Assembly: GCA_012295275.1 (NCBI GenBank)
Contig: CM022676.1
Location: 15,934,001-15,998,000, forward strand
Reading direction: 5' to 3'
From: Chrysomallon squamiferum
Taxonomy: Eukaryota; Animalia; Mollusca
Length of the DNA: 64,000 nucleotides
Under the pieces are notes generated by a model that saw only the letters and a program-made list of their open reading frames with translations, had not been told where the DNA came from and did no database searches. The translations under genes were made by a program, and so were the position numbers. Every line of letters starts with the position of its first letter. Position 1 is the first letter of the stretch. Of this stretch, positions 26,874 through 57,167 are shown piece after piece.

Positions 26874-26924
<51 letters not shown>

Positions 26925-27429
26925 ACATAAATGTAAAAGATAAAGGCCTTAGCATGGATTGGTCAGTTTTGAGACAGCTTGAAATAATCTATTATAGGCA
27001 AGATAAATACTCTCAAATAAGTAAAAAACAAGAATATACAATCATAGCCAGAGATACACCGTCTAATAAAACCATTGTGGGTGATTTCCATCCCAAGTTC
27101 GCCCATGTAGTTGGAAATGTCTTCTCATTTTGTTCAACAACAACAACAACAACAACAATACAGATAATCAGATACATTTAAATCTTTGAAAGTTAATTTC
27201 TTCATCGTCTTCCTCTTTCTCAAACACTATCAAATATTAACTAAGATACAGAATACAGTGGCCCAACTCACACTTAACAGGAATGTATCCTTTCGCTGAA
27301 CCCAGAGGTAAAAGAATACAACATATAACAAACATTATACTATAGATAATACAAATAATACAAATATGTCTTAGAGTCAAAAAGTCCGCACTTACAAAAC
27401 AAAAGAAACAAAAACAAAATTTTCATAAC

Positions 27430-27481
<52 letters not shown>

Positions 27482-27639
27482 TAATAACAATAATAATATT
27501 GATACCAAAATTTGAAAGCAGAAATGTTTTATTGAAGTATTTTTATATCGGCACCAAGCACCACAGCAACAACAATAATAATTAAAAAAGAAAATAATGA
27601 TAATAAATATGTCATATAATTATCATCTCTTTAAACTGT

Positions 27640-28659: not shown

Positions 28660-28706
<47 letters not shown>

Positions 28707-33769: not shown

Positions 33770-33852
33770 TTAATGTTTTGGTTTATAATCACTGAAATTC
33801 AAAACTTCATACGGATGTTCTTCAGTTGACTGACTCTGTTGTAGACTGTTAC
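33770..33852 (-). CDS. Receptor terminal exon (G)[26 protein letters not shown]
   Basis: Acceptor atatttag, phase 1 matches the upstream exon, TAA at 33772-33770, AATAAA on minus strand at ~33565-33570. Confidence 0.75.
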
Positions 33853-34597
33853 CTAAATATAAAAAATAAGAGATGTATAAACATTTTCTTTATGTCTCAA
33901 AAATAATGTGATACAGAAATGCAGGAAAAAACAGACTAACAGAACCAGATGGTTAAATAATAAATAATAAGATATATACAAAATAAAAAAACATAAATGT
34001 GACATATTAACTTGGCTAGGCTGTAATTTACAACAAATATAAAGACAGATATTAATACATAGTAGTGATGAAATAGTTTGTAATACTGCAAAATATCAGT
34101 TTGTAAACACTCTGTACTTATCAGAGAAATATGTTAAACTATATACTTGATTATCTGAGGAGGTAATAAAAAATCCATTCTATTAACTAATCATATAACA
34201 CAAAATAACGCCAGACATTCTTAGCTCAGTATATAAATGACAACATTTTATATTATTACTTTTTCATAATATTTTGTCCAGGCCTCTGTTTCATACTCAT
34301 TTCTTTCTTTACTTCATTTTGTACCTTATTTCTTTCTTTCCTGATTGCCCTGCCAAGAAGTCGTAATAGATATTCAACATAAAGTAAGCCTTCTTGGATT
34401 AAACGTTTAGAAACAATTCCACTTACCCTGTTCAAAAGCAACATTCTCGTATATTGAAGACTGCCGTTGTGAAAAGTTCCTGTGATTTCAGAGACACAAA
34501 ATATCTAAGTGAATTGACTTTTAAAGTTTAATAATAAAAATTAAAGACAGACTGCTCACAGTTAACTGTTAAATAATTTATGTGATATAATAATAAC

Positions 34598-34645
<48 letters not shown>

Positions 34646-37202
34646 CAATAATAACAAAGAGCAATAGTAAAAATAAGTAATAAGAAGAACAATGCAGTTT
34701 TAGATTAACCAAGATACATATATGGAAAAGAAAGAAAGGAAAAATAAGAAAAATATCGAAATATTTTGTTTTAAAAGTATATACTCTCCGAAAAAAGAAA
34801 CGCAAAATGGTTGATTTCTTAGACAACTATTGTAAACTGACACATATCGATGTACAAACTATGAATATAAATAATATTTGGTTATTCAAACGTACAGCTT
34901 TTATTACCGTCGCCAAAAATCAGGTAACACAAAATAAAGGCTATGATCGTGTGTATTAGCCAAAACGTCCCCGCATGGAAACAACGTTACCAGTTCATCT
35001 GCACGTGCGGAACATAAAACTTGAACACGAGGGTAGTAAAAATGCAAGGTTTTCGAATACTTCTGTTCGTCATGTTTGTTCTGACCCAACATCAAATAAA
35101 TGCCACGACTGAGTGAACCGCAACGAAACAACGCCATCGGTCGTTTACAAGCTTGCGAATCCTTCTCGGCCATAGCCCGTGTGTTCCGTGTATCCCCATG
35201 CACCATCTTGAGATTGTGGTATCGGTTCCAGCACCACCAAATAACACGTGACCGTCCCAGTCAGGTAGACTACTTCTACTCACCAGGTTCCAGGACCACT
35301 ACATACGGGTATTTCATGTAATTGAAAGAACCACCACGGCAACCTCTACTGCTTCAGCAATACCAGGTCGGCGTAGAATATCGGCTCAAACAGTGCGCCA
35401 TCGTTTACGCGAGGCAGGTATTTAAGCCAGACGGCCTGTAAGAAGAGTGATTTTGACTCAACAACATCGTTGACTATGACGTCAGCGGTGTCAAGTGCAC
35501 AGAGTTTGGCCTCAATTACGATGGAGAACTGTCTGGTATAGTGACGACGCTCAATTTCTGCTTCATCGAGTTGATGGAAGGTGTCAAGTTTACATACGTC
35601 GAGGTGAATGTTTTGCTGCAAACTGCGTACAGGAAGCGGAAATATTTGGCGGAGGTAGTGTGATGGTGTGAGCAGCAATCTCATACACTGGCAGGACCAA
35701 CCTGGTTCACATGCAAGGCAACTTAACGGCTCACAGATACCGAGATGAAATTTTCCAGCCACATGTCTCTCCAATTATGAATAATGGTAACGCTGTATTC
35801 CAGCACGACAATGTGAGACCACATACAGCCAGACTTTCAACAGCGTACCTACACAACAATAACATTCAGGTCCTGCCCTGGCCCTCTAAATCTCCGGATT
35901 TGAACACTATAAAGAATTTATGGGACGATTTGAATAGACGACAGAGGCAGCATCAACCACTTCCACATAATCCTGCTCAGATGGCATTACTACTTCAGAA
36001 AGAGTGGGCCACAGTTGAACAAGGTGTAATTCGTAATGTCATTACTGCTATGTGAAGGAGATGTCAGGCAGTGCTGGACTCCCATGGTGGGCACACAAGG
36101 TATTGATATTATACTGTTATAACCTTGAACTTTAACCTTTTCATTGTAATACCATCAATATTAAAGAATTGCGAAAGTGTGTGTAAAATGTGAACATTTT
36201 GCTGCTTTATGTTGATATTTCCAATGTCAATAGCATTTTCTTTTGCGTTTCTTTTTTGTTAGAATATATATATATATATATATGTAAGGAAATAAACACT
36301 GAAGTTGATTAATGGATTGTTGGATAATAACAATTAATACATGAAATAAATGTAATCCATCATTCTACACGATGACTACCAAACTGACAGAGTTTGTTTT
36401 ATTATTTCTTGCATAGTTGAATGTTTCCATGTTAAAATACGACAAGGAGAGACATCAAATACACATCACATACATACAGAAAAAAATACACAGGTCACAC
36501 AAAGATATTCACATATCCATACAGATCATATAGAGACATATATACATAGCAAAATATACACATCATGCACAGATATATTCACACATAAACACATGACACA
36601 GAACTGTAGCTCAGAGGTACACATATACTCACACATCGCAAACTGACAGGGACTAACATGCAACATAAACAGATATACACCTGCCCCGTCACAGACAGAC
36701 ACGTACGTGTATCACACACAGACATACAGACAGAAATATGTGGGACATCAATCGGGAATTGCTTACGGTTTGATTCATTGGTTATAGAACCTCTGAACTG
36801 TGGACGTTATTTAATATTAAAGGTTTGATTTCAACACAGAAATAACGAATTGAAACTATAAACCTTTGATGTTAGAATATACTCGTACATTTATAACTAA
36901 TGCAATCTACAATCACTGTTGTGCATGAACACACAAATGCTTGAATACATATACTTTTAGAACAGTAATACACTATATTAATGTATACTGTTAGTTGGTA
37001 TTACCTTGTTTCATATACATGTTCATCTTTTGCATTTCCTGAAAACAAAAAAATAAATACAAATTACAGGCACTAAAATAATAAATAAACAGGCAAAAAT
37101 TGTCTGAACATTTGTAATGTTAAATAATGGTGTTCGATCAAAACTACTTTTATTTTATTTTAGCATGGATAATAATAATAATAATAAGAATAAGAATAAT
37201 AA

Positions 37203-37233
<31 letters not shown>

Positions 37234-38251
37234 CATGATAATTTTATTTTGTTACAAAGCGTATTCCTATTTATCTCAAATTGTTTAAGTATTACATATT
37301 TCCCGATCTATCTCTTTCACAAACACACAGACGTAGAGGAAGATGCACTACGACACACGTTTGCACTTTGAAACTTAAACAAGAAGAAAGAAACAGTACG
37401 AACTTGTTTTCAGTCTACGGTATATGAAGACAGTAGCGACAACAATAAGAGTTAACACGAGAATCCCTGATCCAGCTCCAGCAGCGACTGGTATCAAATT
37501 TTCATTAGACACGTCATCTGAAACAACACTTGTTCATTTGAATAGACATATGCCATACAAACTAGTAGTGCTTGACACATGTAACAAAATATATCCTAAA
37601 GGTATATGTATTACAATACGGCAAATATATTGAAATACAGGTTTTAAATACGGCAGATGTAAGTAAGATAATAAATGTGAAAGTCAAAAGAAAACAATTC
37701 TAAATAAATGATCTGTAAAACAATTGATTAATATTGTTATGATTCAGGAGATGAAAAACAGCTTCTAATATTAAAATCACTTAACGTTAATGTAAAGCTA
37801 TACTGGAATAGAGTTTAAAAAAATCGAAAAGTGAAGATACTGAATATATTTTTTTGTTTATTTAATTTTATTTATTTATTTATTTATTTGTTTGTTTTTG
37901 CTCTCCAACATACTTTCGAACATCGTTTCTCCTCAATCAGTTGATCAATGTGCTTAAAGATGTAACCATTTGAACTAGAATTGTTTTCTAATTTCATATT
38001 ATGAGGCAACTAGAAGTTTCCTAAACCAATTTAAATATCAGTCTGAAAATAATGTAACATTTTAAAAATAGTCTGTGATAAAAGTATTGGAAAAGAACTA
38101 GCCAAAGACTATACAAATACCGGAAGATCATCATCATTGATCATAAGATCATTTACATCCAACATCACCGGTACAGTTTGTTTTAAAATGTTATAGTAAA
38201 GAAAACAACAAGATACATAAAATAATAGTAATAATAATAATAATAATAATC

Positions 38252-38306
<55 letters not shown>

Positions 38307-41300
38307 ACTGTCAGATAAATACGTACTACAAACAAATAAAACAATATTATGTATACCTGTATAGGAAGAAACAAGAAACAGAATATTAAAATGCATGTTA
38401 TCTCATTATTGACATAGGTACCTGTAATAAAAATATCTCTCGCATTTGTAAAAACTGTATCTCCGTATTTGTTATAAGCCAAAATCCTCACAAGATATAT
38501 TCTGTCTGATTTCAGAGACCCTATCACTGTTTTATGGGTTGTGTGTAGACCAAGTTCTAGAAATTTCTCTGTGACGTTGTTCCACTGTGTTGACGTATTC
38601 TCTCTGTACTGTACAATGAATGTTTGCACGAAGCCGCCATTATATTCCTCTGTCCAAGACACTGAGATGGCAGAAGACCTGATTCTCTGCAGGCTCAAAT
38701 GGGAAGGAATCCTCGGTGGACCTTGTAGGCAAAACACAAGTCAGGCTAATTAATGTTCATAAACATGACCATACTAGAATAAGAAATAAAAAATGCGCGC
38801 GCATGAATGTATGTGTGTGTATGTCAGTGTCTGTGTAAATGTGTGTATGTGTGTAAGTTGCTATTTCCATTATTACTGATATTCTAATTTCTGCTAAAAA
38901 AACAGTTACATTTAACAATAAGCTGCACGCTTTGACTGACATCAGACTTGACGTTGTTTCCTGTTTCACAAGTGTAAAATCCTGTATCCAGACATCCAGC
39001 TTCATTCCAGCTGTACTCCACTGACTTGGAGTTGTTCACTTCACGTAGAATGTGTGAGTTGTTTAACAGTTTGATGTGAGATGCTGGATTACTGTCAACT
39101 TCACATCTCAGAGTCATGGGAGTCAGCTCATCAACTGTTATCTTTGTAGACTTCGAGTTTAACGTCAGAGATCTAATAGAAGTTTGGTCTGCAATGATAG
39201 AAACTATTTACTACATGTAATATCACTAACGCTTGATGTGCAAGTGAAACCAGTCAAACACTAGTAATATAAAGAGCAGTATCATCTCTCGATAACTAGT
39301 ACACAAAGTGTCAGTTGTTTTACCGGAAAAGAAATTCTGTTTGTGTGGATGTTGTGGAAACATAAACATTGTCTGCAACACTTTAACTTTTACTTTCACT
39401 TACTAGTAAATTATAATAGACGCTGCAAAAAACAACTAACGCAAATATTTTCATTATCACTTAATGTATGAAATTTATTTATAAAGAATTGTTTTGGTGT
39501 TTTTTTAGTGGAAACTCGGGTTACGAACGCCTAGAAGCACGAATATTTCGGATTAAGCTTTCTTTTGACCTCAACATCTAGTAAAGATAAGTATAGAGGC
39601 TTACTTCAAAACCGAAGTCAAAGTAAGGATTATAGGCATGCCCTACAGCAAATATGTATCATAAATCAGGGTGTTTAGTCTTCAATATGCAGTTGCAGTT
39701 CAATAGCTTTTGGATTGAGATTGTGCTGTCGCATTTTTTAAAAAGCGTTGCTGCTTTTATATGTATGATTCTTATTATACCCTATTATGCGCAAGAAAAC
39801 AAAACGTGAAAGCTATAATGCTGGTGGTAATTATAAATCTATCACAGTAGAGGTTAAGATGGAAATAACTGCAAAACATAAGAGTGCCGTTCGTGTGTCC
39901 GACATTGCTTCGGTTTATGTAAAATTCGGTTTACGAACGGAGTTCTGGAACGAATTAAGTTCGTAACCCGATGTTCCACTGTATGCAGCTAAAACAAAAT
40001 CAGGCTGAAGTTTTTCATACAAGTACTGACAACACGATAGGTAAACAGTGTCAGCAAATCTACAGCACTATCTAGTCAGACACGTTTCTCCAGTTTATTT
40101 TGAATTATTCTGTCAAAATTGAAAAAAAAATGCTTTCCACGCTTCAAATACTATTAAAGGAATAATACTAAAATAAAATTAAAAAGGAAATGAACTTTAA
40201 GAAATAATAATTATAATAAATAAATAAATAAATAAAGTAAGAAATAAAAACACAAAATAATCGTAAAACAGATTTTGTAGGCAGTTCTCGATTGAAAATT
40301 ATTAGAATTTCACAACAGGATAAAGAAAAAATGCAATATAATTTAAAATATAATCAAAAAAGATATTATTGTTAGTGAAAAAATCTTAATATACATGAAA
40401 CTACTGGCTTGGAAGTGAATGCGAGAGAAAACTGGTAAATGTTTTAAACTTTACTCACTAAATGTATCTCATTTTAAAACAAAAATATTTTGTTGATTTT
40501 TATTTCAAATGTAGACAGACAGCAATGAAACAGCGATAACTTTGAAGAAACCGCTTAATACAGTATGTTATTTCAAAATATTTCTATACCTTATTAACAT
40601 GCTTTCATTTAACATATTTTGTTGAGATGAATTAAAATGAAAACGGGGATTCGATATTTATGTTAATGATTTTTCGTGGGTTTCTTTTACATATTATTTT
40701 TGTAATCTGGAACTTACAAAGAACTCTCAGCTGGAACTGGTTACTTCCTGAACGTTCAGATCTATTTGCTGTACATGTAAATGTTTTTCCTGTCTGATTT
40801 CTGCTGACAGGTCCAACAGTTAATACAGAACTCTTAACCAAATACCGATCTTCACTTCTCCACGTGTAGACACAAGATGAGTCACAATTAGCAACACAGC
40901 CTACATTTAGAGTTTCTCCTTCAACAATGTTTCCTGGAGCTGAAGGAATGAATCTAACATAAAGGGTTCCATCTGCAAATAAATAAACAAATAAATAAAT
41001 AGTATCATTATAACAGCAAGTGGAATGTATGGTATCAGTGTATTAATTTATTACAGTCGGAAAAAAATAACAAAAAAACAAACAAGTTAATCAAAATAAT
41101 AATTCTTATGGAACGTAAAATTAGAAAACAAAAACTATGATTAAATTTGATGTTTTCTGCAGGTTTAATGTATCTGAAGATAGCTTTTAAGTAAATGAGA
41201 TAGACTTTTCATATGAACCGATGCAATTTCGTAAAGCTCAGCTGTATATCCAGCGTTATAAAATACAGCCAAGAAGAATAAATGAAAATAGAAAGGTGAT

Positions 41301-42291
41301 TATTATTATTTCTTTAAGCGAGATGGACCTTTAAACTGCAGAAAGTACATCAAGAAAATAAAAATAAAATACATTCATGTATTCATTACAATATAATGTT
41401 GTGACATTCACAAACTTTAACATGAAGTTAAAATAAACAGATAAATAAAAATAGGACCACAGTATATATACATAATTTAATTAATTAATTTTTGAATTAA
41501 TCAATAAAAATTAAATAGAGTCATAAGTAAAGAAAATCTTGAATGACATAACGTAATGTATCCAGTTGCTAGTAGAGACATCTAATGGATAATGACATTT
41601 GAGTGTAAGGTTTCCACATCCAAAAGCTAAATTAAAGACAGAATGTAAGATGGTGATGAACAAAGTAAAACTATTTTGTGAGAAGCTGATGATTACACAA
41701 TTAAATTTTTTGGACAATATGCAACTCGTTTTGTAATTGATAAACAATAAAATAAAATAAAATAAAATAAAATGTCTCCTGAAAACTGACATTGACAGCT
41801 GATACCAGCATCCTCTGAGTGACTACAGTAGTGTTTTCCCCAGCCAAGAAATGAACACTTTTCAACAGTGTCTTCATCTCCATCACATCTCAGCGCATCA
41901 AGCCATATTTGCCCAGTTCCTGCTCCAAAGTGAGCACTTTCATACTGTATTGCATTAAAACTTAAACAAAATTAATATTCATTGTAAAATAAATAATATG
42001 TACAGTAAAATGAACATTATTAAACATAGTTTGCATAACGCCTTAACAGATCTTCTCGTAGTCCTGACGTTTTAAGAAGACATTTGTTACTTTCTAAGTG
42101 ATTTCAACTATGTTTAATATGTATGCTTTGCTACCAAAAGCATAGTCAAAATATCGCCAGCGAAACTGATTTTTCGAACATGACTTGATTATATTTCCTA
42201 TAACGCTCAAGATCATCATTGCTAGAAATTACTATTACTGTTACTTTTTGTTGTAACTGCTGTCGTTTATTCCCCCATCTTCTTCTCATAG

Positions 42292-42356
<65 letters not shown>

Positions 42357-44911
42357 CATTCTCTCGAAAAGTATTTCACGGACACATCATCACTAATTTT
42401 CATTGACAGTAAAATCAAATAAATTACAATTATAAAACATATTCTTGTTCCCAAACTAAGTAAGAAAGTAAGTAAGTAATTATGTAAATAAATGAAGGAA
42501 TTACCGGCTAAATCCTAACATGTGACATAAAACAGAAGCATCTTTCTCATCAAAATCATCATCACAGATTGTTCCCCACGTCCCGTTTACTTGAATCTCA
42601 ACTCGACCTTGTGTTGGTTTTCCTCCTCCATTCACTAACCTTACAGGTACTGAAATAATAACATGTTATGTCTGATTTGTAAAAATAACAATGGTATGAT
42701 TTGTTTAATAAAACAAAACAGAACAAACAAAACATGTATAAACTTACATATGATTTTTCCCTCCTAAAAAAATTATGTTAGACATATTTGGTAATTAAAC
42801 GTACAGTTCGGTAAAATAAACATGTCGCTCTATCTCTAGTATTGCTATAAACATCGGCAACCAATGTTTATGATATTAATGTACTCAACGATTGAAATAT
42901 ATACAGATAAACCCGTGCACACATATATAACTTTTTAACTGTTAAGTAGCACTCTCCTTGTTTTACAATAGCTATGGTCAATAGTATAATAATTCAACAT
43001 TATATTGGCATAATAAATGAAATTGTCAAATAAATAATACGTTCTGAAATACAGGCGTTTTGTGACAATAGCTCTATTCCAAAATTATAATATGTTTAAA
43101 GATAGAACATTTAATAAGTGTCAGAGGCTGCCAGTGCAATTTTAGAAAGTTTATGTGAAGAAACTGATTTTGTGATAACAGACCAAACAGCACGTTGTTG
43201 GTGTCAGCGATTTGTGGATGAGAAGCAGAACTCTGGTCATTCATCTTAACTGTTTCCTGTAATGTGGCATTCCTGCTTAACAGAGTTCCACTAGACAATG
43301 GTCTGAATATCAGAATCCTAGATGTCACACAGGCATGTATCAGTAAGGTCAAACGTAAAACAACGAGCTATTCACAACATCATCAAGCAGATAAAACAAA
43401 ATTCTGACAAACAGAGACTGGAATAAGTCATTTCGAAACTGATGCTTACATTTCTGCTAAATATACTAAGTCTGCTAGTTTAAAGGATAAATAATGCAGT
43501 CGAGTGACACTGACATGACTCAGGGTTCTATATCATCTTGATTATGTTTCCTCATTAACAGAAACATTCCAACACAGCACTAAACCGTTAGCCTGGATTA
43601 TGTGACGTATTCCATATCCTGATTTCATCAGGATATTAGATAGTTACTAATCTTCATTTAATTTAAATTGTATGCTACTGATCCAATTTCGACAACTATC
43701 ATATTACATACAAACTGAGACAAGAAAGAAGCCAATGGATGTTCATAAGCTGTTGTTTAAATTCATATCATTATAAACATTTCAATAAACTAGATACGAT
43801 AATGTATCTGTGAAGTCATTTATCGAAACTGATACAGAGATGCTGTGTTATCCTCAGAATCTGTGTCAACAGAACAACTAAAATGAGGTATCATAATATC
43901 TGCTAGGCCATCAATATCACAAATGGAGAACAGCTCCGGTTCGTGCCACGATGCTTGGGAAGGTTATTTGAAGGATTCAATCACAAAATGGAAATATCCA
44001 GTGAGAAAGTGGAAAAATACAGTGTCAGTTCTAACACAGACCAGTGTACATAGAAGTAAGTTAGGCGAGCGACTCTTCACTCTCAGTCTCTAAGTCCATT
44101 GACATGTTCTGACTGAAGTAAGACTGTAGAGAACTTCCAGTCAATATTTAATTTTAGAATTTTTGATAACACTAATTTCAGAGTTTATCATAACGCTAGC
44201 CTTCTTCAATAACTTGATCAAGAACTATTAAAATAAATTAAGACCCGCAAAATGTATATAGAAATTCAAATATAATACGGATAAAATGTTATCTATAAAT
44301 CATGGAAACGCTTACTTTCCTCAGCAGTGTATTGAATTTTATCTCATCACAAAAGCAGATTTAATATCCCTAAATAAATGTTATGATGTGTTAAATATAT
44401 ATAACACGGCCAGTCACTCTTTAATTTTGCTGTTTCGTACTTTGCGGTTTCGGATGATTCTATAAATACAACCATTGTAGATTAATGTTAATTATGTTCC
44501 AGCCTTTTTTTTTTTTTTTCTTATTTTGTGATATAGTTCCATAAAGCTCTTTTCGTTTTCTATCTATAACAATGTGCGTGTAATGGTACTCAAACGATAC
44601 TGGCGTAACCTGTATTGAAAGTGAATGTGTGTTTTTTGTGTAGGTCAGATATAATCAGTCTGTCACTGTTAAGTGAGATACCATGAAGTATAACCGGGTG
44701 TTACTTTCACTTGCTAGCAGATCATGAAGTAGGTAGTATTCGACGCTAGCGGGTTACTTGGTTTGGATCCTCTAGTAAATATTATCGACACACAAAAATA
44801 GTAAACGGATATCTTTTGGTAGCAAATGTTACTATTAAATAAAGAAAACTTTTATATGGGAATAAAAAAAAAATGTAAATAAAAAAAGATATATACACAT
44901 ATAAAAATAAA

Positions 44912-44986
<75 letters not shown>

Positions 44987-46535
44987 TAATGGTTTATCAC
45001 TGTTTTAGGAATCACTAAGGAGCGCTTTCAAATCGGACCTACACTATAACCCTGTCTATGCACATACATTAGTAAAACAAAATTCACACAACAGTCAAAC
45101 CCTTCATATTGTCTTATTCTGATATCAAAGAGAATCTCATCACAAATGGATAACACATCAATTAAAATAACAGATACAAGTCTGATTAACATAAAGCTTC
45201 AGATTTTTATTTTTATTTTTCTTACTTCTCCTAGATTGGTCACTTTTAGTCTGTTCACTAAATGTTTTGTTATCATTAATTTTACTAATTCTACATGTCA
45301 CTACTTACAACGATTCAAACAGCTGATGCCCACGTCTTGCTTATGACTACAGTTGTTTTCACCCCAAGTAGAGTATGAACAATAGTCTACACTTTCTTCA
45401 TCTCCATTACAGTCAAGTCCATCAAGCCAAATAGGTCCACTGCCTTGTCCAAACTGAGATGCTGGGTAAAATTTTGCTTCGAAACTGAAAACACGTTTAA
45501 TAATAAGACTAATAATAATAATATTAATAAAAATACAATACAGAATAATAAGACTTATTCCTCATGTTGCTGTTGGACTATCCTGTAAAAATGAAAAACA
45601 AATAAAAAAATGTGACGAAGAAACGAAAGCAATAATTTATAGCTAGATCATTTTCTGTAAATTTTTTGATTATACGTTTTACAAATAATTCATTAGTACT
45701 TATATTTCACAATTCGATTCTTCTTGAATCTGTATTTTTTCATCAATAATGTATTAATAAAGCGTACACTAATTTTAGGGTTAAAACATTTTACTAAATT
45801 ATTATTTCTATTATTGTACAATAATCAATACTATTTTAATGGTGTCAAAATAGTATTGACAATACATTTTTACAAAGTCACCTTTTACTTGTAATATCCA
45901 GAAGCCAGATTTTTTTTCTTTTTTTTTCTGGTAAATATGTTTATAAAAAAAAATAAAAATAAATAAAGACAAATAATAATAACAATAATAGGTTGTTATA
46001 TATATATATATATATATATAAGGTACAAAATCAGAACAGGCAAAATACTGAATTAAGAAATCAGAATTTTATATAAATGTGAACATGTCGCTGCATCGAA
46101 AGCTGTAACAACATAAAATATATTTTGAAGATATAACGTTGCTAGATATAAATAAATAGTTTTAAAGAAAATATTTATTTACCGACTAAAGCCCATCATC
46201 ATTACAGATTGCAACAGCATCTCTGTCATCAAAATCATTATCACAGACAGTTCCCCATGTCCCGTTGTTTTCTATTTCAAGTCTGCCTCGTGTTGCAATT
46301 CCTCCTCCATTGGCCAATCGAACAGAAACTGAAGTCAGTTGAAGAAACGATCACATCACAAACTATTTTCAAAATTTCATTTGTTTTATTTAACGGTCCG
46401 GTTCCAAATTAATTTTCGCTTCATAGATCTACGTAAATAATATTACCAAGCCATATGACTTCATCATCGAGCTATATAATTAGCAATACATTTTTACAAA
46501 GTCAACTTTTACTTGTAATACCCAGAAGCCAGATA

Positions 46536-46566
<31 letters not shown>

Positions 46567-46617
46567 CTGGTTAATATATTTATAAAAAAAATTATAATAA
46601 TAATAATAATAATAATG

Positions 46618-46693
<76 letters not shown>

Positions 46694-46798
46694 CAATAAT
46701 AGTAAATAAATAAAAAACAAAATAAATTAATTAATTAAGTATTAACAACAACAACAACAACAACAACGATAATAATAATAATAATAACAATAACAATT

Positions 46799-46863
<65 letters not shown>

Positions 46864-47706
46864 TGTGGCGTTATTTTATAAATCAAAGAATGTAAAAGGT
46901 ACAGCCGATACTTTTCACGCTAAGTGCTTCTTCCATTTCACATTTAATGCTAAATGTTTTGTTCTTAAAATTGTACAGAAAACAATAAACCACAATAAGA
47001 AAACAAACAACATACTCTGAGGCAAGCAACTTATTCCCAAATCCTGTTTATGACTACAGTTGTCTTTTTTACCCCAGTCATAGAAAGAACAGTGATTCAC
47101 TCCATTTTCATCTTGAACACAGTTAACACCATCAACCCACACTGGTCCTGTTCCTTCTCCAAAGTGAGCATTCTTATACGTCTTTGCGTTGAATCTAGGA
47201 TTTACAAATCACAAACTGAACTGATTGATCTTGGTTAGTAGAACTATTGATCAACCTGTACTACGTGATCATCCAGATTTTATCTGATTTTGTATAGCGC
47301 AAATAGAAAAGAACTCATATTTTACAACTGTTTATAAACAGAACAATGTAATTCAAGGTAAAAATTTTCTTACTGACTGAACCCTAAAAGTGTACAGAAA
47401 AAGCCTGCATTTTTGTCGTCAAATTTGTCACCACAGACAGTTCCCCATGTATCGTTAAGTTTGATCTCAACTCGACCCTGTGTTGAAATACCTCCACCAT
47501 TGACTAGCCTGAGAGACACTGAAAACATAAAAAAAATAATATAAAATTCCAAATTTACCTTTCAGTTTACATATGCTATATTTACAATACCATGAAGATA
47601 TTGGATTTCTTCAAATTTCATTACAGTCAAACATGCAGTTGTGGTCTTCTGTTGGTTGACATTACCGTCTGAAGGAAGGCTGGTGTTTAAAATTATTAAA
47701 CAGTCC

Positions 47707-47748
<42 letters not shown>

Positions 47749-47749
47749 G

Positions 47750-47781
<32 letters not shown>

Positions 47782-48869
47782 GTTCTTTCTTTGTTTCTTT
47801 TCAGTAACTTTCCATGTTTACTTCTACTTTAGAAAATCGATTTTGTAGTATCAATTAATACTCTTGTAACTCTATTTCTTCTGAAGACTTCGCACAAGCT
47901 GTTTCGTTCCCCACCGACTTTATTTTCCTATTTATATGGAAGTCAACAAGAATAATCTGCACAGTTTCACTAATGAGTTTCCTCTGTTATAACCATCTGA
48001 TGTCTATAATAAGTCTTACATGAATTACAAATGATCAAACAGACAAACAAGGAAACCAATAAACAAACAACAAGCAAACAAACAAACAAACATGTAAACT
48101 AACTAATAAATACAAAACTATTGCATCATTAATATATCACAATTCAATTTAGATTATTTTAAAGCCGGCTTGTTAGTTAACTCTCGTACTCAATCCTGAT
48201 ATTAGTTTCTTTGTTTCATTTTATTACTAAAGACAAATAAAGATAGATACACTCTTCAGTACAACACTATTAAATACACGGATTAAAATGTTGATGCCAA
48301 CAAGTTAAAATACTTTGTTAAAATACTCTGTTACTGATACACAAGAAATAAAATAAAATAAGTAACACGTGTAAACTGACATTGACAGGTGATACCAGCA
48401 TCCTCTGAGTGATCACAGTTGTGTTTCCCCCATCCAGGAAATGAACACTTTTCAACACTCTCTTCATCTCCATCACATCCCAGATTATCAAGCCATATTT
48501 GTCCAGTTCCTTCTCCAAATTGAGCAAAAGGATACGATGTTGCATTAAAACTTCAAAAGAAATGAATATTATGTACAGTGAAATGAATATTATAGAACAT
48601 CGTTTATTAAACACCTTGAACAGATCTCATTTTAATCTCAATATTATAGAAGAAAGTAATTACTTTCTAAGTGATTCCAGCAATGTTTAATACAAGAATG
48701 TGTTGATACTGAAAAGATAGTTTAAATATCCTAAGTGAAATGTGATTTTTCATCATCATAACTGCTATTCTTTTTTTTTTCCTTCTTCTTCTTCTTCTTT
48801 TATTATTATTATTATTATTACTATTATTATTATTATTGTTATTATTATTGTTATTGTTATTGGTATTAC

Positions 48870-48908
<39 letters not shown>

Positions 48909-49532
48909 ATGAGTAATACAATGAATAAAAAGTAAGTATAATAAATATTATGGAATATTCTGTGGAAAAGTGTTCAACACACTGGCATTTAGTTCCAAGG
49001 TTTTTCAGAATAATATACTTATTTTCTAAATTATTTCAAAACAATTTTAGTGAACAATGTTTGTTACAATAATACCTTTAACATAGTGTAAATATAATCA
49101 ACATCATTATTTACATTTTACTACTACTCCGACTAATAATAATAGTATTAATAATAATACTACGACTACTACAGTTATCATTATTTCTTATAAAAAAATA
49201 TTTGAAATGTTAAAAATCCCATCCAGAGGAATTCCTCGTGTAATGCATTTGAACAACAATTAATTATCTTCTGGTTGTGAACAAATTTGAATCTACTACA
49301 TCTGTAAAAAGACGTTTTTTTTTTGTTTGTTTTTTTGTTTCATTAAACAACGAAAATAAATAAATAAAAATATAATAAACAAAGTACCGACTAAATCCTA
49401 ACATGTGACATAAGACAGAAGCATCTTTCTCATCAAAATCATCATCACAGATTGTTCCCCACGTCCCGTTTACTTGAATCTCAACTCGACCTTGTGCTGG
49501 TTTTCCTCTTCCATTCACTAACCTTACGGGTA
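33770..49532 (-). CDS. Multi-exon gene for an SRCR x4 - Ig x2 - FN3 - TM - Tyr-motif-tail receptor (~810 aa without leader); frameshifted in SRCR3 in this sequence
   Basis: 16 exons with GT-AG borders, listed separately. Phases are compatible except for the SRCR3 +1 lesion and one unresolved tail exon. Start codon not located. Confidence 0.85.
34427..34479 (-). CDS. Receptor cytoplasmic exon [17 protein letters not shown] (ITIM-like SIYENV)
   Basis: Acceptor aatcacag, donor cagg|gtaagt, 53 nt, phase 2 to 1. Confidence 0.8.
34782..36266 (+). mobile_element. Full-length degenerate Tc1-like transposon in a receptor intron, antisense to the gene
   Basis: TIRs tactctccgaaaaaagaaacgcaaaa / ttttgcgtttcttttttgttagaata flanked by TA. 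Transposase runs from ATG 35100 ([19 protein letters not shown]) to TGA 36104-36106 with frameshifts and stops. The catalytic Glu motif is altered ([11 protein letters not shown]). Confidence 0.93.
36767..36792 (-). CDS. Receptor cytoplasmic micro-exon (R)GSITNESN
   Basis: Acceptor cacagttcag, donor aacc|gtaagc, 26 nt, phase 2 to 1. Confidence 0.55.
37005..37038 (-). CDS. Receptor cytoplasmic exon (R)[10 protein letters not shown]
   Basis: Acceptor ttgttttcag, donor aag|gtaata, 34 nt, phase 1 to 2. Confidence 0.8.
37404..37517 (-). CDS. Receptor transmembrane exon [38 protein letters not shown]
   Basis: Hydrophobic helix followed by basic RRLK stop-transfer. Acceptor gtttcag, donor a|gttcgt, 114 nt, phase 1-1. 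Confidence 0.9.
38422..38721 (-). CDS. Fibronectin type III exon
   Basis: PPRIPSHL...[23 protein letters not shown]...[18 protein letters not shown]; 300 nt, phase 1-1, donor cag|gtacct. Confidence 0.92.
38910..39188 (-). CDS. Ig-like domain 2 exon
   Basis: [19 protein letters not shown]...[13 protein letters not shown] (DxGxYxC); 279 nt, phase 1-1. Confidence 0.92.
39506..39981 (+). mobile_element. Internally deleted Tigger/pogo-like element retaining the transposase N-terminal HTH
   Basis: TIRs agtggaaactcgggttacgaac / gttcgtaacccgatgttccactg|ta. A 59-aa ORF at 39787-39966, MRKKTKRE...[28 protein letters not shown], resembles the CENP-B/pogo HTH_psq. Confidence 0.85.
40718..40972 (-). CDS. 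Ig-like domain 1 exon
   Basis: [25 protein letters not shown]...[22 protein letters not shown]; 255 nt, phase 1-1, donor t|gtaagt. Confidence 0.9.
41791..41960 (-). CDS. SRCR4 exon b
   Basis: [56 protein letters not shown]; 170 nt, phase 2 to 1. Confidence 0.93.
42505..42649 (-). CDS. SRCR4 exon a
   Basis: [47 protein letters not shown]; 145 nt, phase 1 to 2. Confidence 0.93.
43100..44270 (-). mobile_element. Heavily decayed L2/CR1-like LINE ORF2 fragment in an intron
   Basis: [10 protein letters not shown] and [12 protein letters not shown] resemble the LVHAFVTSRLDY and HITPILxxLHWLP motifs C-terminal to L2/CR1 RT. Locally higher GC. Boundaries approximate. Confidence 0.55.
45309..45484 (-). 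CDS. SRCR3 exon b
   Basis: [58 protein letters not shown]; 176 nt, donor t|gtaagt. Confidence 0.93.
46183..46328 (-). CDS. SRCR3 exon a with a +1 frameshift
   Basis: [41 protein letters not shown]. It is 146 nt versus 145 nt in the three paralogous exons and reads into TAG at 46188-46186. Confidence 0.9.
47016..47194 (-). CDS. SRCR2 exon b
   Basis: [59 protein letters not shown]; 179 nt. Confidence 0.93.
47374..47518 (-). CDS. SRCR2 exon a
   Basis: [47 protein letters not shown]; 145 nt. Confidence 0.93.
48381..48550 (-). CDS. SRCR1 exon b
   Basis: [56 protein letters not shown]; 170 nt. Confidence 0.93.
49388..49532 (-). CDS. SRCR1 exon a
   Basis: [47 protein letters not shown]; 145 nt, phase 1 to 2. 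Confidence 0.93.
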
Positions 49533-49752
49533 CTGAAATAATAACAGGTTTATATATGATCAGTCAATTATAATAGTGCTAGTTATTCAGAAAGAAAACA
49601 GTATATCCTGAACTATGCTAATTTTCATTTACAAAGATATTTGTTAGTGTATAATACAGATACCATCATATCTTGGCGTTGTTGTAGATACCAACATCGA
49701 ACATTTGTGTCATAAACAAGGATTTTTATTATAGTTATTTTAATGAAACCAC

Positions 49753-49799
<47 letters not shown>

Positions 49800-50658
49800 T
49801 GATGATGAAATACTGAAAGGTTTCAATATGAACTGACACAGCCATGGTTAATATATAATTAATGAAATAATAATTCACACCGATGCGTTTATTCCATATT
49901 ACAAAATATTTCTTAAAGCCTAAGTTCTGTGCTTAAAATACGTACGGTTTTCTTCTTTGTTTTTTGTTTTTTTCAATATTTTAATTTAGCAAATTCAAAG
50001 TCACGACAGAAAATAGTGATAAAGCTATTTACTTTTTCAGAAATAACAATCCGCATTTATTATTGTAATACTGCACATATTTGGAAATTGTTATGTTGAA
50101 CCGGATCAGATAATTCAACTATATAATTGGATTAATTAATTATAATTCAGTTGTCTATGATTTAAGATTGGTTTTATTAGTTCTTGAATGAACACAGTAT
50201 AAGTCGTTTGGAGTAATAATTTTTATATGATAGAAATAAAAGTCTTTTTTTTTTGTTTTATTTTTATTTTATTTTTAAGAATAAATATTATGCATAATTG
50301 ACAATTCTAATGATTAACAGGACCACACAATTCAACTTTAGATGTGCACTAATTAAAAGTTATTAATGTGTTTATTATTTAATTTTAGCTTTATCACTGC
50401 TTGAATAAACACAGAATATAAAGCATTTTAACTAAGACATGTTTTTTTTTTTTTTTTTACTCTAAAATATCTCTTCACTGACAAGCGATCTCAGTTTAAT
50501 CAGCAGCAGCTGGAAACAAACAGTTCAGTTGAAAATTAAACTTTTCAGTGACTCAGTTAGGATCAGTTTCAGACTGGAAACGTAAAGAGGTCTTAAATTT
50601 AGATAAATAAAAACAATATATATATAAAAATGATAAAGCCGAATTTTGTATCACATAC

Positions 50659-50676
50659 AAAAACAGCGCAGAAGAC
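50659..50676 (-). CDS. Candidate 18-nt micro-exon (x)LLRCF, possibly the second half of the receptor signal peptide
   Basis: Strong acceptor tttcagtgtttcaatttccag and donor t|gtatgt. Phase 1-1 is compatible with SRCR1a. Confidence 0.4.
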
Positions 50677-51439
50677 CTGGAAATTGAAACACTGAAACGT
50701 TTTAATCACACAATATCAACACGGTCATACAACACGTCACACTGAATATTTAAAATTCAAAATAAATTCAAATTAAACTAAAACCTTTTTTTTTTTTTTA
50801 AATTAACGGACAAAATACTATATATATATATTTGTATGTTTATGCATATATATATATATATATGTATGTGTTGAGACAGGAATCACACTTTTAAACACCT
50901 TGGATGTTTTATTAAAGGTTCAGTCTAAGATAACATGATGATTTAACAAAGGAATACAAACGCTAAATTGTCAACCCAACTTATATAAATCAATAAGTAT
51001 ATCTATCCACTAGAGAAATAAACACAACACAAGTTAATTTTCACGTTAATTATTTAATTATGATATGCAGGTGTCTTGATATGTACACAGTACACAATCA
51101 TAAAAGCATATGTTTAAGTAATTTTGATTAATGATACAGTAAAAAGGTTATATGGTGAACCAAGACAAAATAAAGAATCTGCACCGGAACACAATAAGAC
51201 GTTAAAATTTATTTTATAATTAAAGTTATTATTGTACAAGTTAACTGCACATTACAGCCTATCAAAATAATAATAGACTATTCTTGCCACTCTTTCGTAG
51301 AAGACAATGTCATTAAAAAAATTTGACGTGTAGATATGAATGTCTATACGGATGTCAATGGTAATTAATAAATACAAAATATTTAAATTATTATTTTCAT
51401 TATTCATCTTCAGTTATTGTAGACATTACTCAACATCAT

Positions 51440-53260
51440 TTATCGTCGTTGAACACTTTAAATGAAAACTTTCTGTTTGAAGTTGTATTGTTTTTTTTCT
51501 CGTTTGCTCGTGAGAACGTGATCAAAGTCACATAGGTTACAAGTTACGGTTCTTGGGTTTTCAGGTGTCACTTTACAGAGATGAAAGTCAGATACAAAGT
51601 ACAAAGAAGCCGTGCTACTTGTTACGGGTAAATAAACATACTGATACTGCTTAATTGTTTGAGGTTGTTGTATTTTATAACATTTAAAATGTTATTTTAT
51701 TATGTGGCTGTGTAATTTAATATGTACTATCAGAAACCAGTAAGAAAGAACCAACTAGAGGACCACATGTAATAATCTGAAGTATAAATCAAAGAATTCG
51801 GCATACACACACAAATATATATATACCCCCCAAAAAAAAAAAAATCTATAATTTCATGATTTTAGTTTTTGACAGTATTGCAGCTAGTGCATTTCTTTAT
51901 TCTTTAATCTCTAAAAGTGTGTGAAAATGGACATTGTATGGTCAGCATGTCCATTTTACGTGCATTTCACTATTAAACTTCAAATATTACATCTTGCGTT
52001 GTAGGTAACACCTTGAACTTTAATTAAAGTCATTTCAAGCTCAAATAAAATGTGAAAATATTCCAAAATGTAGTTGGTACTTGCTAGTGGCTCATTTGGG
52101 ATCCTTACCAAATCATCTTTCTAATAAAACATTTTCATAAAAATGTTCCTACTTATTAGCAAACTACCAATCTAAAAATAGTCGCAATTATGCCCATTTG
52201 CGCTAAAATCCCAAAATTCGAGAGCGAATATTATTGAGCCTGTTGTACCAACATCATCTAACACACATACTTTCTGCTGTGAATGTTTTGTCGATGCAGA
52301 CTTATCCATTTTTCAATTCACGGTCCTCATAATTCAACACCTCACCGATTCACAGTTTTAATTATTATTATAACTATCGGTTATTTCTTTCTTAATAACT
52401 ATATATATATAAAAATAGTATGACATATCTGAAATGACGGTAGTAAATAAATCCACACATATGGAAAGAAAAACATTTCTTAATTAAAAACTGACTACGT
52501 CAGTCTGTCTCCAACAAACACAATTACTTTAATTCAGATCCTCGTTCCTAGTCTTATATACATTGCACTTTAACTGACGAAGTTTATTTCGTAATCGTAC
52601 GCATCTTTGTTCTTAGTACCTGGAATGGAACGTATGACAGATGAGGTAAAAAAGTATTGTTATCAAGAACAGTGAAAACAATCTTTTTTTGTAGAGTCTG
52701 TCTACCTGTCTTTCTATTCATCTGGATTTATATATCGATCTGTATTTATTTATTCCAAATCGTTTGCCATTACATATATTTGAGACACGTATATACCTCC
52801 GTGAATGTGTCTAAATGTGATTGCACGGGCGCATGTATTTCTGTGGTTCTGTTTGTGTGTGTCTGATTCTGTGAACAACGGTTCGTATGTCCGTGTGTTT
52901 AATTACAGATATTCTGTTCTGAATTTCTATACTGATTCAGTAATAAATTCTAATAAATTCTTCAGCGAATAAACATCTTTAATGTCTTAAATATTGTGCA
53001 CAGAGAAATACTTAATTTGTAACTATCAAAGAATCATGTTATTGATGATTTATCATCACAGGCACATTCCGAAGCTGTTATCAACATACATTAACCATTA
53101 AACAATTAATTAATTCCTTTTGAAGTAAATGGTAAATGTTTATTTGATCATCCCCAAAACTGTAGACAATTTGGAAATAAGGTTAATTTTGTTCTCACGT
53201 CCGTATGGTGTTACATCCTTCATACACACATTTCCTGTTACCCATCAAGCCACATATATC
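51440..53260 (+). repeat. Segmental duplication, direct paralog of 27640-30020
   Basis: Same collinear blocks as listed for 27640-30020. Confidence 0.85.
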
Positions 53261-55119
53261 TCAGGTATTTTTAGAGTAAACCTTGTGAACCCTGAAACCG
53301 TGGAATAGTCCTAATAGCCGATTAGAGAAAATGAAATAAAACAATTCGGTAATAGACAAAAAATATTTAGAGTATTTACCGTTTTCTCCATAGGTACAGT
53401 CAAACATTTTGATGTACATACACACACTCAGATATATACATATCTTACACAGATCAACACAAATATGTGCATATATACACACACACCCATACACACACAG
53501 TCATATAGAAGTGCCCGTTTTGCTGTAAACTACAGTAACATATTTGATCCTCCTAAATATTAACCGAGTATATCTTTGTGTGTTAATGACACACTAATTT
53601 ATCTAGACTACATTTCAAACAAACAGAGTTAATTTTATATACTGGTCATGCTAGTTTCATCACACGACTACAACCAGTGTACAATTATATTTGGAAAAAA
53701 ACAAAAAGAAAGAAGCATTATAATTATCTCTAGATAAGTTGTAATGTTTTAAAAGAGTGTGATCTTGCATAGCAAGACAACAACTATGTCAAATGAAAAG
53801 AAACAATGAATGCATAATAATTTGTAACCATCAGTATTATGTTACCTACACAAACTGATGTCTCGTTTTGATTTTAATAAACACACCTATGATTTCCATA
53901 CATTTTTTTAAATGTATTTTTATCTTGCACAGTGGATACCTATTTACGTCTAAGTTCTCCTGTTCAAAAACTTGACATTTCTCAGTAGTTTACTTTAGCC
54001 AATCATAAATCAGAATAGAAAGTAGTGAGAAGGCTATTTTTTTTAGCTAAATATGGATACTTATGCATATCTGTGTTTGTATACATGTTTGTACATATGT
54101 ATATATGTATCCGTTTAAATATGCATCTGTGTACGTATCAATAATTATCTGTGAATGTGACTAATATTTACAGCAATTATTATAGGAATTATTAAATTAA
54201 ATTATTAAGTTTGTGATAATAAAATATAGCTAATGTGTCCTATTAATATTTAATAGTTCTCGCCTATATACAAAGCGGAAGAGGTGAACAATAATAACAT
54301 GTGATATCGTCCAGTAAGCTGAACATCGATCGTACTTGTGAACCGGGACCAGTACAAAACAAAAAAAATATTTTTGAAAACACGATTTTTAAGCAAAGGA
54401 TAAATTAATGAAATTAATGATATTATTTAAACCGAAACGTTTTGATTTCATAATTCGTCACTTTTCGACGATCGTTCACATAAAAACTGTTATGGCATAC
54501 ATACGACACCCAAACTTGAATGAACAGTGTCAATACATTATACTAACTAAATTAATGCATCAGTCAATAATTACAAAAATCTGATATATCTAAACTTATC
54601 ACTCGATTCTCGTTATGGGTTCATTCGTTATGATTTTCATCTTGTTTCACTTGTATTTTATCTCAGTCACTGCGTCAGTTTAAGTAAAAATTGTGTCGAC
54701 TTTCTGCGAGCAGGATTTGATATCTATCCGCATACAGATTGCTGCTGACACATTTTTTTCCTTTTACTTTTATGCTTTAATATATTTTTTCTTTATTTTT
54801 AAATTATTTAAATTATTAATATTTTTTTCTACAATAAACTATTTTTTTTTAATGTTTTCTCCCTCAGTTAACGCTATTAATTGCATTCATTGATGATCAC
54901 ACTTTATTTAAACACAAGTCTCCTTATGATGCATTCCCATTAGCATTTACTGTTCCTGAAAAGATTTAATTTCTTGATTTGACCCTAATTAGGTCGCATA
55001 ATTTTGTTTGCTGAATGATCAAATCGAGTATGTATAATGCAATTTGTATTGTAATAAACATTATATACATTAAACCACTGTAGTTATAAAAAATACATCA
55101 ATTTAAAAATAAAGACATA

Positions 55120-56158: not shown

Positions 56159-56222
<64 letters not shown>

Positions 56223-57110: not shown

Positions 57111-57167
<57 letters not shown>

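What the first reader, a model, noticed from the sequence alone, without database searches (positions are those of the whole stretch)
33770..50676. Hybrid SRCR4-Ig2-FN3-TM receptor with a tyrosine-motif signalling tail
Seen in sequence: four two-exon, six-cysteine SRCR domains are followed by two Ig exons, an FN3 exon, a TM exon and small tail exons, nearly all phase-compatible. Established: 6-Cys two-exon SRCRs are group A, and SRCR arrays (DMBT1, MARCO, sea-urchin SRCRs) are pattern-recognition modules. Ig-FN3-TM-Tyr tail is the stalk of nephrin/hemicentin-like invertebrate IgSF receptors. I do not recall a characterised family fusing the two in this order. Inference: an exon-shuffled signalling pattern-recognition receptor, and the best candidate here for an undescribed system.
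Basis: partly seen in the sequence, partly recalled or inferred. Interest (0 to 1): 0.8.

Follow-up and report, generated by a model that had tools for sequence, protein, structure and literature searches.

The report
Snail receptors with swappable sensing heads
A snail gene joins scavenger-receptor (SRCR) domains to an immunoglobulin-fibronectin stalk, a membrane anchor and a tyrosine-motif tail; RNA from a closely similar copy shows the join, and relatives in a vent snail carry either SRCR or immunoglobulin heads on the same stalk, so this is likely an undescribed family of microbe-sensing signalling receptors, although this copy has a frameshift.

Summary
The architecture is real. Fifteen minus-strand exons with AG/GT ends encode four six-cysteine SRCRs, two Ig, one FN3, a TM and a tail with SIYENV and HPYEVL. 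One RNA contig about 93% alike splices SRCR4 to Ig1 to Ig2; Ig1-Ig2 is joined in 4 of 4 runs. The gene is open only if SRCR3 is skipped (690 aa) or the base is an assembly error; untested. No signal-peptide exon was found. It is not a one-off: the vent snail Gigantopelta aegis has SRCR7-Ig5-FN3-TM, SRCR4-Ig-FN3-TM and SRCR3-(Ig-FN3)5-TM models plus Ig-headed sisters on the same stalk, auto-labelled DMBT1, nephrin, hemicentin or CEACAM. It fails DMBT1 and SR-I membership. Ten paper searches found no description of this family, but SRCR with Ig or FN3 mosaics are known in invertebrates. Best reading: a lineage-expanded modular receptor that likely binds polyanionic microbial surfaces through calcium and likely signals through SH2 proteins. 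Function is untested. New variant of a known kind; interest 0.5.

The parts
49388..49532 (-). SRCR1 exon a (phase 1 to 2)
   Evidence: AG/GT ends; Pfam SRCR 48.9 bits
48381..48550 (-). SRCR1 exon b (phase 2 to 1); SRCR1 keeps all predicted cation-site residues
47374..47518 (-). SRCR2 exon a
47016..47194 (-). SRCR2 exon b; cation site 2 degenerate
46183..46328 (-). SRCR3 exon a, 146 nt: one extra base, in-frame TAG at 46188
45309..45484 (-). SRCR3 exon b (intact)
42505..42649 (-). SRCR4 exon a (recent duplicate of SRCR1a)
41791..41960 (-). SRCR4 exon b; donor at 41791 used in an RNA contig of a similar copy
40718..40972 (-). Ig1 exon (42-45% to nearest G. aegis domain)
38910..39188 (-). Ig2 exon, the conserved family marker (67-77% to G. 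aegis), with an extra Cys and a Cys made across the Ig2-FN3 junction
38422..38721 (-). FN3 exon
37404..37517 (-). Transmembrane exon, small-residue-rich, no charged residue
   Evidence: hydropathy
37005..37038 (-). Tail exon 1 (HVYET), predicted
   Evidence: no RNA test
34427..34479 (-). Tail exon 2 with ITIM-like SIYENV, predicted
   Evidence: aligns with ALYEDM/SLYEDM of G. aegis sisters
33770..33852 (-). Last exon with HPYEVL and stop, predicted
   Evidence: aligns with APYDVL of sisters
50659..50676 (-). Candidate 18-nt phase-1 leader micro-exon, unverified
   Evidence: AG/GT and in frame; no homology or RNA support
34900..36280 (+). Tc1/mariner-like transposon remnant inside the tail intron (approximate ends)
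   Evidence: Pfam DDE_3 at 35672-36052; partial second copy at 466-1036

Best explanation
This gene encodes an SRCR-headed member of an expanded snail family of single-pass receptors built on a shared Ig-FN3-membrane-tyrosine-tail stalk, and it likely senses polyanionic microbial or matrix surfaces through calcium-bridged SRCR sites and likely signals through SH2-domain proteins docking on its phosphorylated tail. Shown: exon anatomy; splicing of SRCR to Ig to Ig to FN3 in similar copies; sister genes with SRCR or Ig heads; conserved YxxPhi motifs; retention of the acidic cation site in SRCR1 and of site 2 in SRCR4. Inferred steps: (1) the SRCR array binds repeated anionic ligands such as bacterial surface polymers with avidity; (2) the Ig-FN3 stalk holds the array off the membrane, and clustering is helped by the small-residue TM; (3) a Src-family kinase phosphorylates SIYENV and HPYEVL; (4) with one ITIM-like motif, no ITAM and an uncharged TM, the output is more likely inhibitory or adaptor-type (SHP2/SHIP, Grb2/Nck) than Syk-activating. 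Symmetric phase-1 cassettes would let heads and stalk modules be gained, lost or skipped. In this haplotype the product would be a three-SRCR form (SRCR3 skipped), unless the extra base is an assembly error.
For: Anatomy. RNA (4 runs, one study, contigs, 90% threshold): X3 record 19 holds SRCR4b from the exact donor 41791, then Ig1, then Ig2 (29 differences in 438 aligned letters; 8 unplaced letters match the 8 bases left to the acceptor); Ig1-Ig2 joint in 4 of 4 runs; Ig2-FN3 joint in 1 of 4; in 3 of 4 runs other contigs continue from Ig2 into a different Ig exon (SPRLDHRV, read by hand), the arrangement of most G. aegis sisters. Family: 11 of 50 candidates hit, all G. aegis, 67-77%; SRCR-headed models XP_041372788 (7 SRCR, 5 Ig, FN3), XP_041372560 (4 SRCR, Ig, FN3), XP_041372972/971 (3 SRCR, Ig-FN3 repeats); Ig-headed sisters P0002-P0005, P0158. 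Tails: 34 YxxPhi in 17 records vs shuffled mean 8.7, 0 of 2000 shuffles reach it (3 of the 34 are juxtamembrane, paralogs are not independent); window motifs align with sisters'. Cation site: SALSA D1019/D1020/E1086 and D1058/D1059/N1081 (PMC7043408) map by spacing to D,D,E / D,N,N in SRCR1 and D,D,E / D,A,Y in SRCR4. Faster protein change in the SRCR C-terminal half between duplicates SRCR1 and SRCR4: 20 nonsynonymous differences in 134.7 sites vs 2 in 92.5 (Fisher p 0.001) at similar synonymous divergence. Oyster CgIgR shows that a mollusc Ig receptor can bind bacteria and signal by a tyrosine motif (PMC6994640, abstract).
Against: No ligand, tissue, phosphorylation or partner was tested. 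SRCR3a is frameshifted, no signal exon was found, a transposon sits in a tail intron and a broken helicase gene lies nearby. SRCR2 and SRCR3 have degenerate cation sites. 7 of 17 family records have no YxxPhi, including the SRCR-headed P0012/P0188. dN/dS of 1.27 for SRCR1b/4b fits relaxed as well as positive selection. In the scaly-foot snail, genes labelled DMBT1 are enriched in mantle (26 rows) and scale (13 rows) and absent from the symbiont-organ list (0 rows) (PMC7142155 supplements). The same SALSA site binds hydroxyapatite and heparin. G. aegis architectures are automatic gene models.
Confidence: 0.55

Rival explanations
1. The family is real but this copy is a recent pseudogene or null allele; the RNA comes from intact paralogs or alleles.
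For: Frameshift with stop in SRCR3a, not in a homopolymer; no signal exon found; the longer RNA pieces over SRCR4b, Ig1 and FN3 differ by about 4-10%; broken helicase and transposon remnants nearby.
Against: The other 14 exons are open with canonical ends; skipping SRCR3 restores a 690-aa frame; SRCR3 exons show dN/dS about 0.17-0.31 against the other repeats, like intact ones; some Ig2 pieces are near-identical (1 difference in 161).
Confidence: 0.3
2. An epithelial adhesion or matrix receptor: SRCRs bind mineral, chitin-associated proteoglycan or matrix polyanions at the shell/scale epithelium and the tail couples to the cytoskeleton, as nephrin does through Nck (recalled).
For: Scaly-foot snail DMBT1-labelled genes are mantle/scale enriched and were read as biomineralisation genes (PMC7142155, PMC7736800); SALSA SRCR binds hydroxyapatite; the stalk's nearest solved folds are NCAM2, contactins and titin.
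Against: The published DMBT1 set lists no Ig or FN3 domain in any gene and is a dense array of short genes, while this window holds no second SRCR gene in 64 kb; many variant copies and fast change at ligand-site residues suit recognition of changing ligands better.
Confidence: 0.2
3. A self or cell-cell recognition receptor in the manner of Hydractinia Alr or CD6, binding a host protein (perhaps an Ig-headed sister) rather than microbes.
For: Same stalk logic as Alr (Ig, FN3-like, ITIM/ITAM, exon shuffling; bioRxiv 2022.03.04.482883); CD6 SRCR3 binds CD166 through the same acidic site; the four runs show different Ig1 variants.
Against: No sequence link to Alr was tested; snails are not colonial; variants may be paralogs, not alleles.
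Confidence: 0.15
4. Two adjacent genes: a secreted SRCR array and a separate Ig-FN3-TM receptor.
For: No contig identical to this haplotype spans the junction; the tool warns that joints under 95% likeness can be spurious.
Against: X3 record 19 joins the two at the predicted sites; three G. aegis genes have SRCRs directly before the homologous Ig; SRCR4b has no stop exon and only 818 bases separate it from Ig1.
Confidence: 0.03

Closest known systems
Gigantopelta aegis RefSeq models XP_041372788.1, XP_041372560.1, XP_041372972.1/971.1 and Ig-only sisters (auto-labelled DMBT1-, DSCAM-, titin-, hemicentin-, nephrin-, CEACAM-like)
   Same: Same order SRCR-Ig-FN3-TM, six-Cys SRCRs, same Ig2 type with its extra cysteines in 13 of 13 records checked, aligned tail motifs.
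   Different: Module counts differ; the window's four SRCRs group together in the tree (90/95), so no one-to-one repeat orthology; Ig2 joined straight to FN3 was not seen in the G. aegis records; no paper describing them as a family was found.
Human DMBT1/SALSA/gp340
   Same: Tandem SRCRs; cation-site residues kept in SRCR1 and partly SRCR4.
   Different: DMBT1 is group B (8 Cys), has CUB and ZP domains and is secreted; here group A, Ig-FN3-TM-tail.
Scaly-foot snail 'DMBT1' expansion (65 copies, Chr11; PMC7142155; 70 copies in PMC7736800)
   Same: SRCR arrays expanded in a peltospirid snail.
   Different: Published Pfam table lists SRCR only, no Ig or FN3; short genes in a dense array; sequence membership could not be tested.
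'CEACAM5-like' Ig expansion of vent snails (90 copies in C. squamiferum vs 13 in abalone, PMC7142155 Supp. Data 1; also expanded in G. aegis, PMC7895826)
   Same: Lineage-expanded Ig genes; one family sister carries a CEACAM-like label (P0010); two such genes are enriched in the symbiont organ, one in scale.
   Different: Link is by label only; no architecture, SRCR head or tail motif was described in the passages read.
Class I scavenger receptors CD5, CD6, CD163 (and WC1, recalled)
   Same: Type I membrane proteins with several SRCRs; CD163 is the top solved-structure hit by sequence; tyrosine signalling tails in CD5/CD6/WC1 are recalled.
   Different: Defined by SRCRs only (PMC5119243); CD5 and CD6 are group B; no Ig-FN3 stalk.
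Hydractinia Alr family
   Same: Ig-Ig-FN3-like-TM-ITIM/ITAM layout, many paralogs, exon shuffling.
   Different: V-set head, no SRCR reported in what was read; allorecognition shown there; analogy only.
Oyster CgIgR (PMC6994640)
   Same: Mollusc single-pass Ig receptor with tyrosine-motif signalling after bacterial binding.
   Different: Five Ig domains and an ITAM recruiting Syk; no SRCR or FN3 in the abstract; the window tail has no ITAM.

Membership tests
SRCR group A domain | Six conserved cysteines | tested here: met
   6 Cys in 4 of 4 repeats; definition from PMC10855680 passages
SRCR group A domain | Encoded by two exons (rule recalled) | tested here: met
   Each repeat is an a (phase 1-2) plus b (phase 2-1) exon
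DMBT1/SALSA | Group B (8-Cys) SRCRs | tested here: not met
DMBT1/SALSA | CUB and ZP domains, secreted | tested here: not met
   Ig, FN3 and TM follow the SRCRs; upstream CUB-looking ORFs hit no Pfam family
DMBT1/SALSA | Acidic dual cation site | tested here: inconclusive
   By motif spacing: complete in SRCR1, site 2 only in SRCR4, degenerate in SRCR2 and 3; binding not tested
Scavenger receptor class I (CD5/CD6/CD163) | Several SRCRs, TM, no other extracellular domain | tested here: not met
   Ig and FN3 present; definition in PMC5119243
Scaly-foot snail Chr11 'DMBT1' array | SRCR-only models in a dense tandem array | tested here: not met
   Supp. Data 2 has no Ig/FN3 row; no second SRCR gene in this window. 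Published models may be truncated
Scaly-foot snail Chr11 'DMBT1' array | Sequence membership in that orthogroup | not testable with these tools
   Sequences not held; species of the window not established
Nephrin/SYG-2 | About 8-10 Ig plus one FN3 and clear orthology (recalled) | tested here: not met
   Two Ig; named nephrins outside G. aegis match the stalk at 22-23%
ITIM-bearing inhibitory receptor | S/I/V/LxYxxI/V/L motif (consensus recalled) | tested here: met
   SIYENV; tail exons predicted only
ITIM-bearing inhibitory receptor | Phosphorylation and SHP/SHIP recruitment | not testable with these tools
   needs bench work
ITAM receptor (CgIgR type) | Two YxxL/I 6-12 residues apart, or charged TM for an adaptor | tested here: not met
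   No ITAM pattern; no charged TM residue
Hydractinia Alr | V-set head, two I-set, FN3-like, in one histocompatibility complex | tested here: not met
   SRCR head here; Alr layout; sequence homology not tested
Vent-snail Ig-FN3-TM-Tyr family (this report) | Ig2-type domain with extra Cys and junction Cys; homologous FN3, TM and tail motifs | tested here: met
Vent-snail Ig-FN3-TM-Tyr family (this report) | Tight genomic cluster | tested here: inconclusive
   13 G. aegis records share one 53.39-Mb scaffold but positions are unknown; no paralog in this window

The most novel reading that the evidence does not exclude
Vent snails have evolved their own leukocyte-receptor-complex-like system: one conserved Ig-FN3-TM-tyrosine chassis, expanded to dozens of genes (the published 'CEACAM5-like' expansion), onto which different sensing heads (SRCR arrays or Ig domains) are swapped as phase-1 cassettes. 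Copies differ between individuals, change fastest at the SRCR ligand site, come with or without inhibitory tails, and set tolerance or rejection of bacteria, including the endosymbionts.
Probability: 0.2. Interest if true: 0.8.

Novelty: new variant of a known kind. Interest (0 to 1): 0.5.

Why it matters
Mollusc SRCR expansions are usually filed as secreted 'DMBT1' and Ig expansions as 'CEACAM', 'nephrin' or 'hemicentin'. Here both labels hide one modular family of membrane receptors with tyrosine tails. If confirmed, it supplies named, testable candidates for how symbiont-bearing vent snails turn bacterial contact into an intracellular signal, and a mollusc parallel to paired Ig receptor clusters and Hydractinia Alr genes. 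The domain combination alone would not surprise a specialist, because invertebrate SRCR mosaics are common.

Tried and rejected
No whole genome is held, so paralogs could not be counted in this species. FN3 exon against longer proteins: 0 of 100 candidates. Stalk of XP_041372788 against 807-2571-aa proteins: 28 hits of 7989, only itself with SRCR; weak, since P0012 is in range and was missed. Of 188 fetched proteins 6 hold SRCR: 4 G. aegis records and 2 with SRCR behind FN3 arrays. JGI metagenomes: 0 of 587 stretches and 1 of 103, a weak generic Ig exon L001. ESM Atlas: generic FN3; chordate SRCR+Ig clusters of 95 and 80 members, none shown with fn3 (three families per cluster at most). Repeated SRCR fusion: not shown. 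FN3 tree p-AU 0.40; first-Ig tree p-AU 0.009 with N-truncated models but 0.36 after dropping P0001, P0006, P0010 and the second Ig of P0009; the p-AU 0.001 is void because the group held a different Ig type. CUB reading of upstream duplicated blocks: no Pfam hit, frames broken between copies. ISRE-like motif at 50680: 1 seen, 0.97 expected. An extra tail exon near 36800 has no AG/GT pair in a compatible phase. AlphaFold of a sister stalk: pLDDT 66, only generic Ig-FN3 matches. No reads were laid over SRCR3, so the frameshift stays open. Earlier findings: none near, by words or by sequence. Amphioxus paper PMC2493400 not held.
Full report
1. Observation. On the minus strand I find 15 exons between 49532 and 33770: four SRCR a/b pairs, Ig1, Ig2, FN3, TM and three small tail exons. 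All 15 have AG acceptors and the 14 internal ones GT donors. Pfam passes the curated cut-off for 8 of 8 SRCR halves, Ig2 and FN3; Ig1 is borderline. Every domain is a phase-1 to phase-1 cassette. Each SRCR has six cysteines, which is group A (PMC10855680, passages). No other SRCR, Ig or FN3 exon of this family lies in the window.

SRCR3a is 146 nt, the other a-exons 145, and an in-frame TAG stands at 46188. Joining all exons stops at codon 261; leaving out SRCR3a and b gives an open 690-residue frame. SRCR3 shows dN/dS of about 0.17-0.31 against the other repeats, like intact ones, so the break is recent or an assembly error. No reads were laid over it. No signal-peptide exon was identified; the 50676 boundary is an unverified 18-nt candidate.

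2. Is it one transcript? Four RNA runs of one study, kept as contigs, were laid on 38310-42290 at 90% likeness. X3 record 19 (446 nt) has Ig2 (105 letters), Ig1 (247) and SRCR4b (86, starting at the donor 41791); the 8 unplaced letters equal the 8 bases left to the Ig1 acceptor. It differs at 29 of 438 letters, so it is an allele or close paralog. The Ig1-Ig2 joint appears in 4 of 4 runs and Ig2-FN3 in 1 of 4. In 3 of 4 runs other contigs leave Ig2 for an exon reading SPRLDHRV (by hand), the next Ig of G. aegis sisters. The species therefore expresses several stalk layouts.

3. Relatives. The Ig2 exon finds 11 proteins among 50 candidates, all from the peltospirid vent snail Gigantopelta aegis, at 67-77%. 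The window is thus likely a related snail; the species was not established. Three G. aegis genes are SRCR-headed: XP_041372788 (7 SRCR, 5 Ig, FN3, TM, tyrosine tail), XP_041372560 (4 SRCR, Ig, FN3, TM, tyrosine tail) and XP_041372972/971 (3 SRCR, Ig-FN3 repeats, TM, no tail tyrosine). Five others (P0002-P0005, P0158) have an Ig head on the same modules. Thirteen records share a 53.39-Mb scaffold, positions unknown. These are automatic models. Ig2 is conserved while Ig1 (42-45%) and FN3 (up to about 55-58%) are not. Its extra cysteine and the cysteine at its end occur in 13 of 13 records, and the window rebuilds the latter across the Ig2-FN3 splice. No SRCR-headed relative outside G. aegis was found, by searches of limited reach. 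One or several SRCR fusions cannot be told apart.

4. Mechanism. Heads: SALSA binds bacteria-derived protein, heparin and hydroxyapatite through a dual cation site (PMC7043408, passages). By motif spacing SRCR1 keeps the whole site, SRCR4 keeps site 2 and alters site 3, SRCR2 and 3 are degenerate. SRCR1 and 4 are recent duplicates whose b-exons changed at 20 of 134.7 nonsynonymous sites against 2 of 92.5 in the a-exons (p 0.001) with similar synonymous change; relaxed or positive selection both fit. Among the listed RNA differences in SRCR4b, 7 of 8 change a residue when scored one site at a time, one restoring the site-3 Asn (the source table was truncated and neighbouring changes were not combined). 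Tail: SIYENV fits the ITIM consensus (recalled), HPYEVL is a second YxxL, there is no ITAM and no charged TM residue. Both motifs align with those of Ig-headed sisters. Across 17 records 34 YxxPhi occur against 8.7 in shuffles (0 of 2000), but 7 records have none. I commit to a calcium-dependent polyanion sensor with inhibitory or adaptor-type SH2 signalling (0.55). Binding, clustering, phosphorylation, partners and tissue are all inferred. Rivals: null copy 0.3 (compatible with the family claim), matrix or mineral adhesion 0.2, host-protein recognition 0.15, two genes 0.03.

5. Known systems. It fails DMBT1 (cysteines, CUB/ZP, secretion) and class I scavenger receptors (extra domains; PMC5119243, passages). 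The scaly-foot snail's 65 'DMBT1' genes (PMC7142155: passages; Supp. Data 2 whole; other supplements searched) list no Ig or FN3, are short, densely arrayed and mantle/scale enriched; PMC7736800 (passages) gives 70 copies. That paper's Supp. Data 1 also lists 90 'CEACAM5-like' and 7 'nephrin-like' genes as expanded, and PMC7895826 (passages) lists CEACAM5 as expanded in G. aegis; that these are this family is a guess from labels. Two CEACAM5-like genes are enriched in the symbiont organ, but no DMBT1- or scavenger-labelled gene is. SRCR combined with Ig or FN3 is stated for invertebrates in PMC7308585 (passages) and in parts for cnidarians, a sponge and a ctenophore (passages); PMC7663992 (passages) added nothing specific. 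Hydractinia Alr (bioRxiv 2022.03.04.482883, abstract and section 8) and oyster CgIgR (PMC6994640, abstract) are functional analogues.

6. Novelty. Ten searches returned no paper describing SRCR-Ig-FN3-TM-tyrosine receptors or this snail family. The library lacks most subscription papers, figures of domain architectures could not be seen, and one large supplement of PMC7142155 was unreadable, so the same order may be drawn somewhere. Verdict: real, a new variant of known kinds, more interesting as a modular family than as one hybrid gene, with this copy's integrity open. Interest 0.5.

Noticed in passing
window 15900-17024 (+): Broken superfamily-1 helicase gene (Pfam AAA_11; resembles ZNFX1, name recalled) with a frameshift and an in-frame stop.
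   Followed up: partly
window 34900-36280 and 466-1036: Tc1/mariner-like remnant (DDE_3) in the tail intron and a partial 84%-alike copy near the window start.
   Followed up: partly
window 1040-9974 vs 55119-62398; 24882-30015 vs 51500-53260: Segmental duplicates of non-coding DNA at 67-84%; a roughly 300-base element occurs four times (4337, 27722, 51500, 57957). CUB-looking peptides there have no Pfam support.
   Followed up: partly
window 39940-40109 and 39507-39772 (Ig1-Ig2 intron): One X1 contig appears to include about 170 intronic bases between Ig1 and Ig2 (inexact ends), a possible frame-breaking cassette exon; a nearby intronic stretch is covered in 4 of 4 RNA runs, likely a transcribed repeat.
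   Followed up: no
window 50680-50690: ISRE-like GAAANNGAAAC upstream of the gene; single match at chance level.
   Followed up: yes
window 19400-24200 and 17345-18400: A degenerate AT-rich tandem array, and a shorter repeat array with open reading frames that hit no family.
   Followed up: no
P0123, P0154 (G. aegis): Tails with tandemly repeated tyrosine-motif units; P0012/P0188 has a 20-residue tail without tyrosine, a possible decoy or non-signalling form.
   Followed up: no
ESM Atlas clusters: Two mostly chordate 'DMBT1-like' clusters (95 and 80 members) carry SRCR plus Ig in over 80% of members: an independent SRCR-Ig combination worth a look.
   Followed up: no
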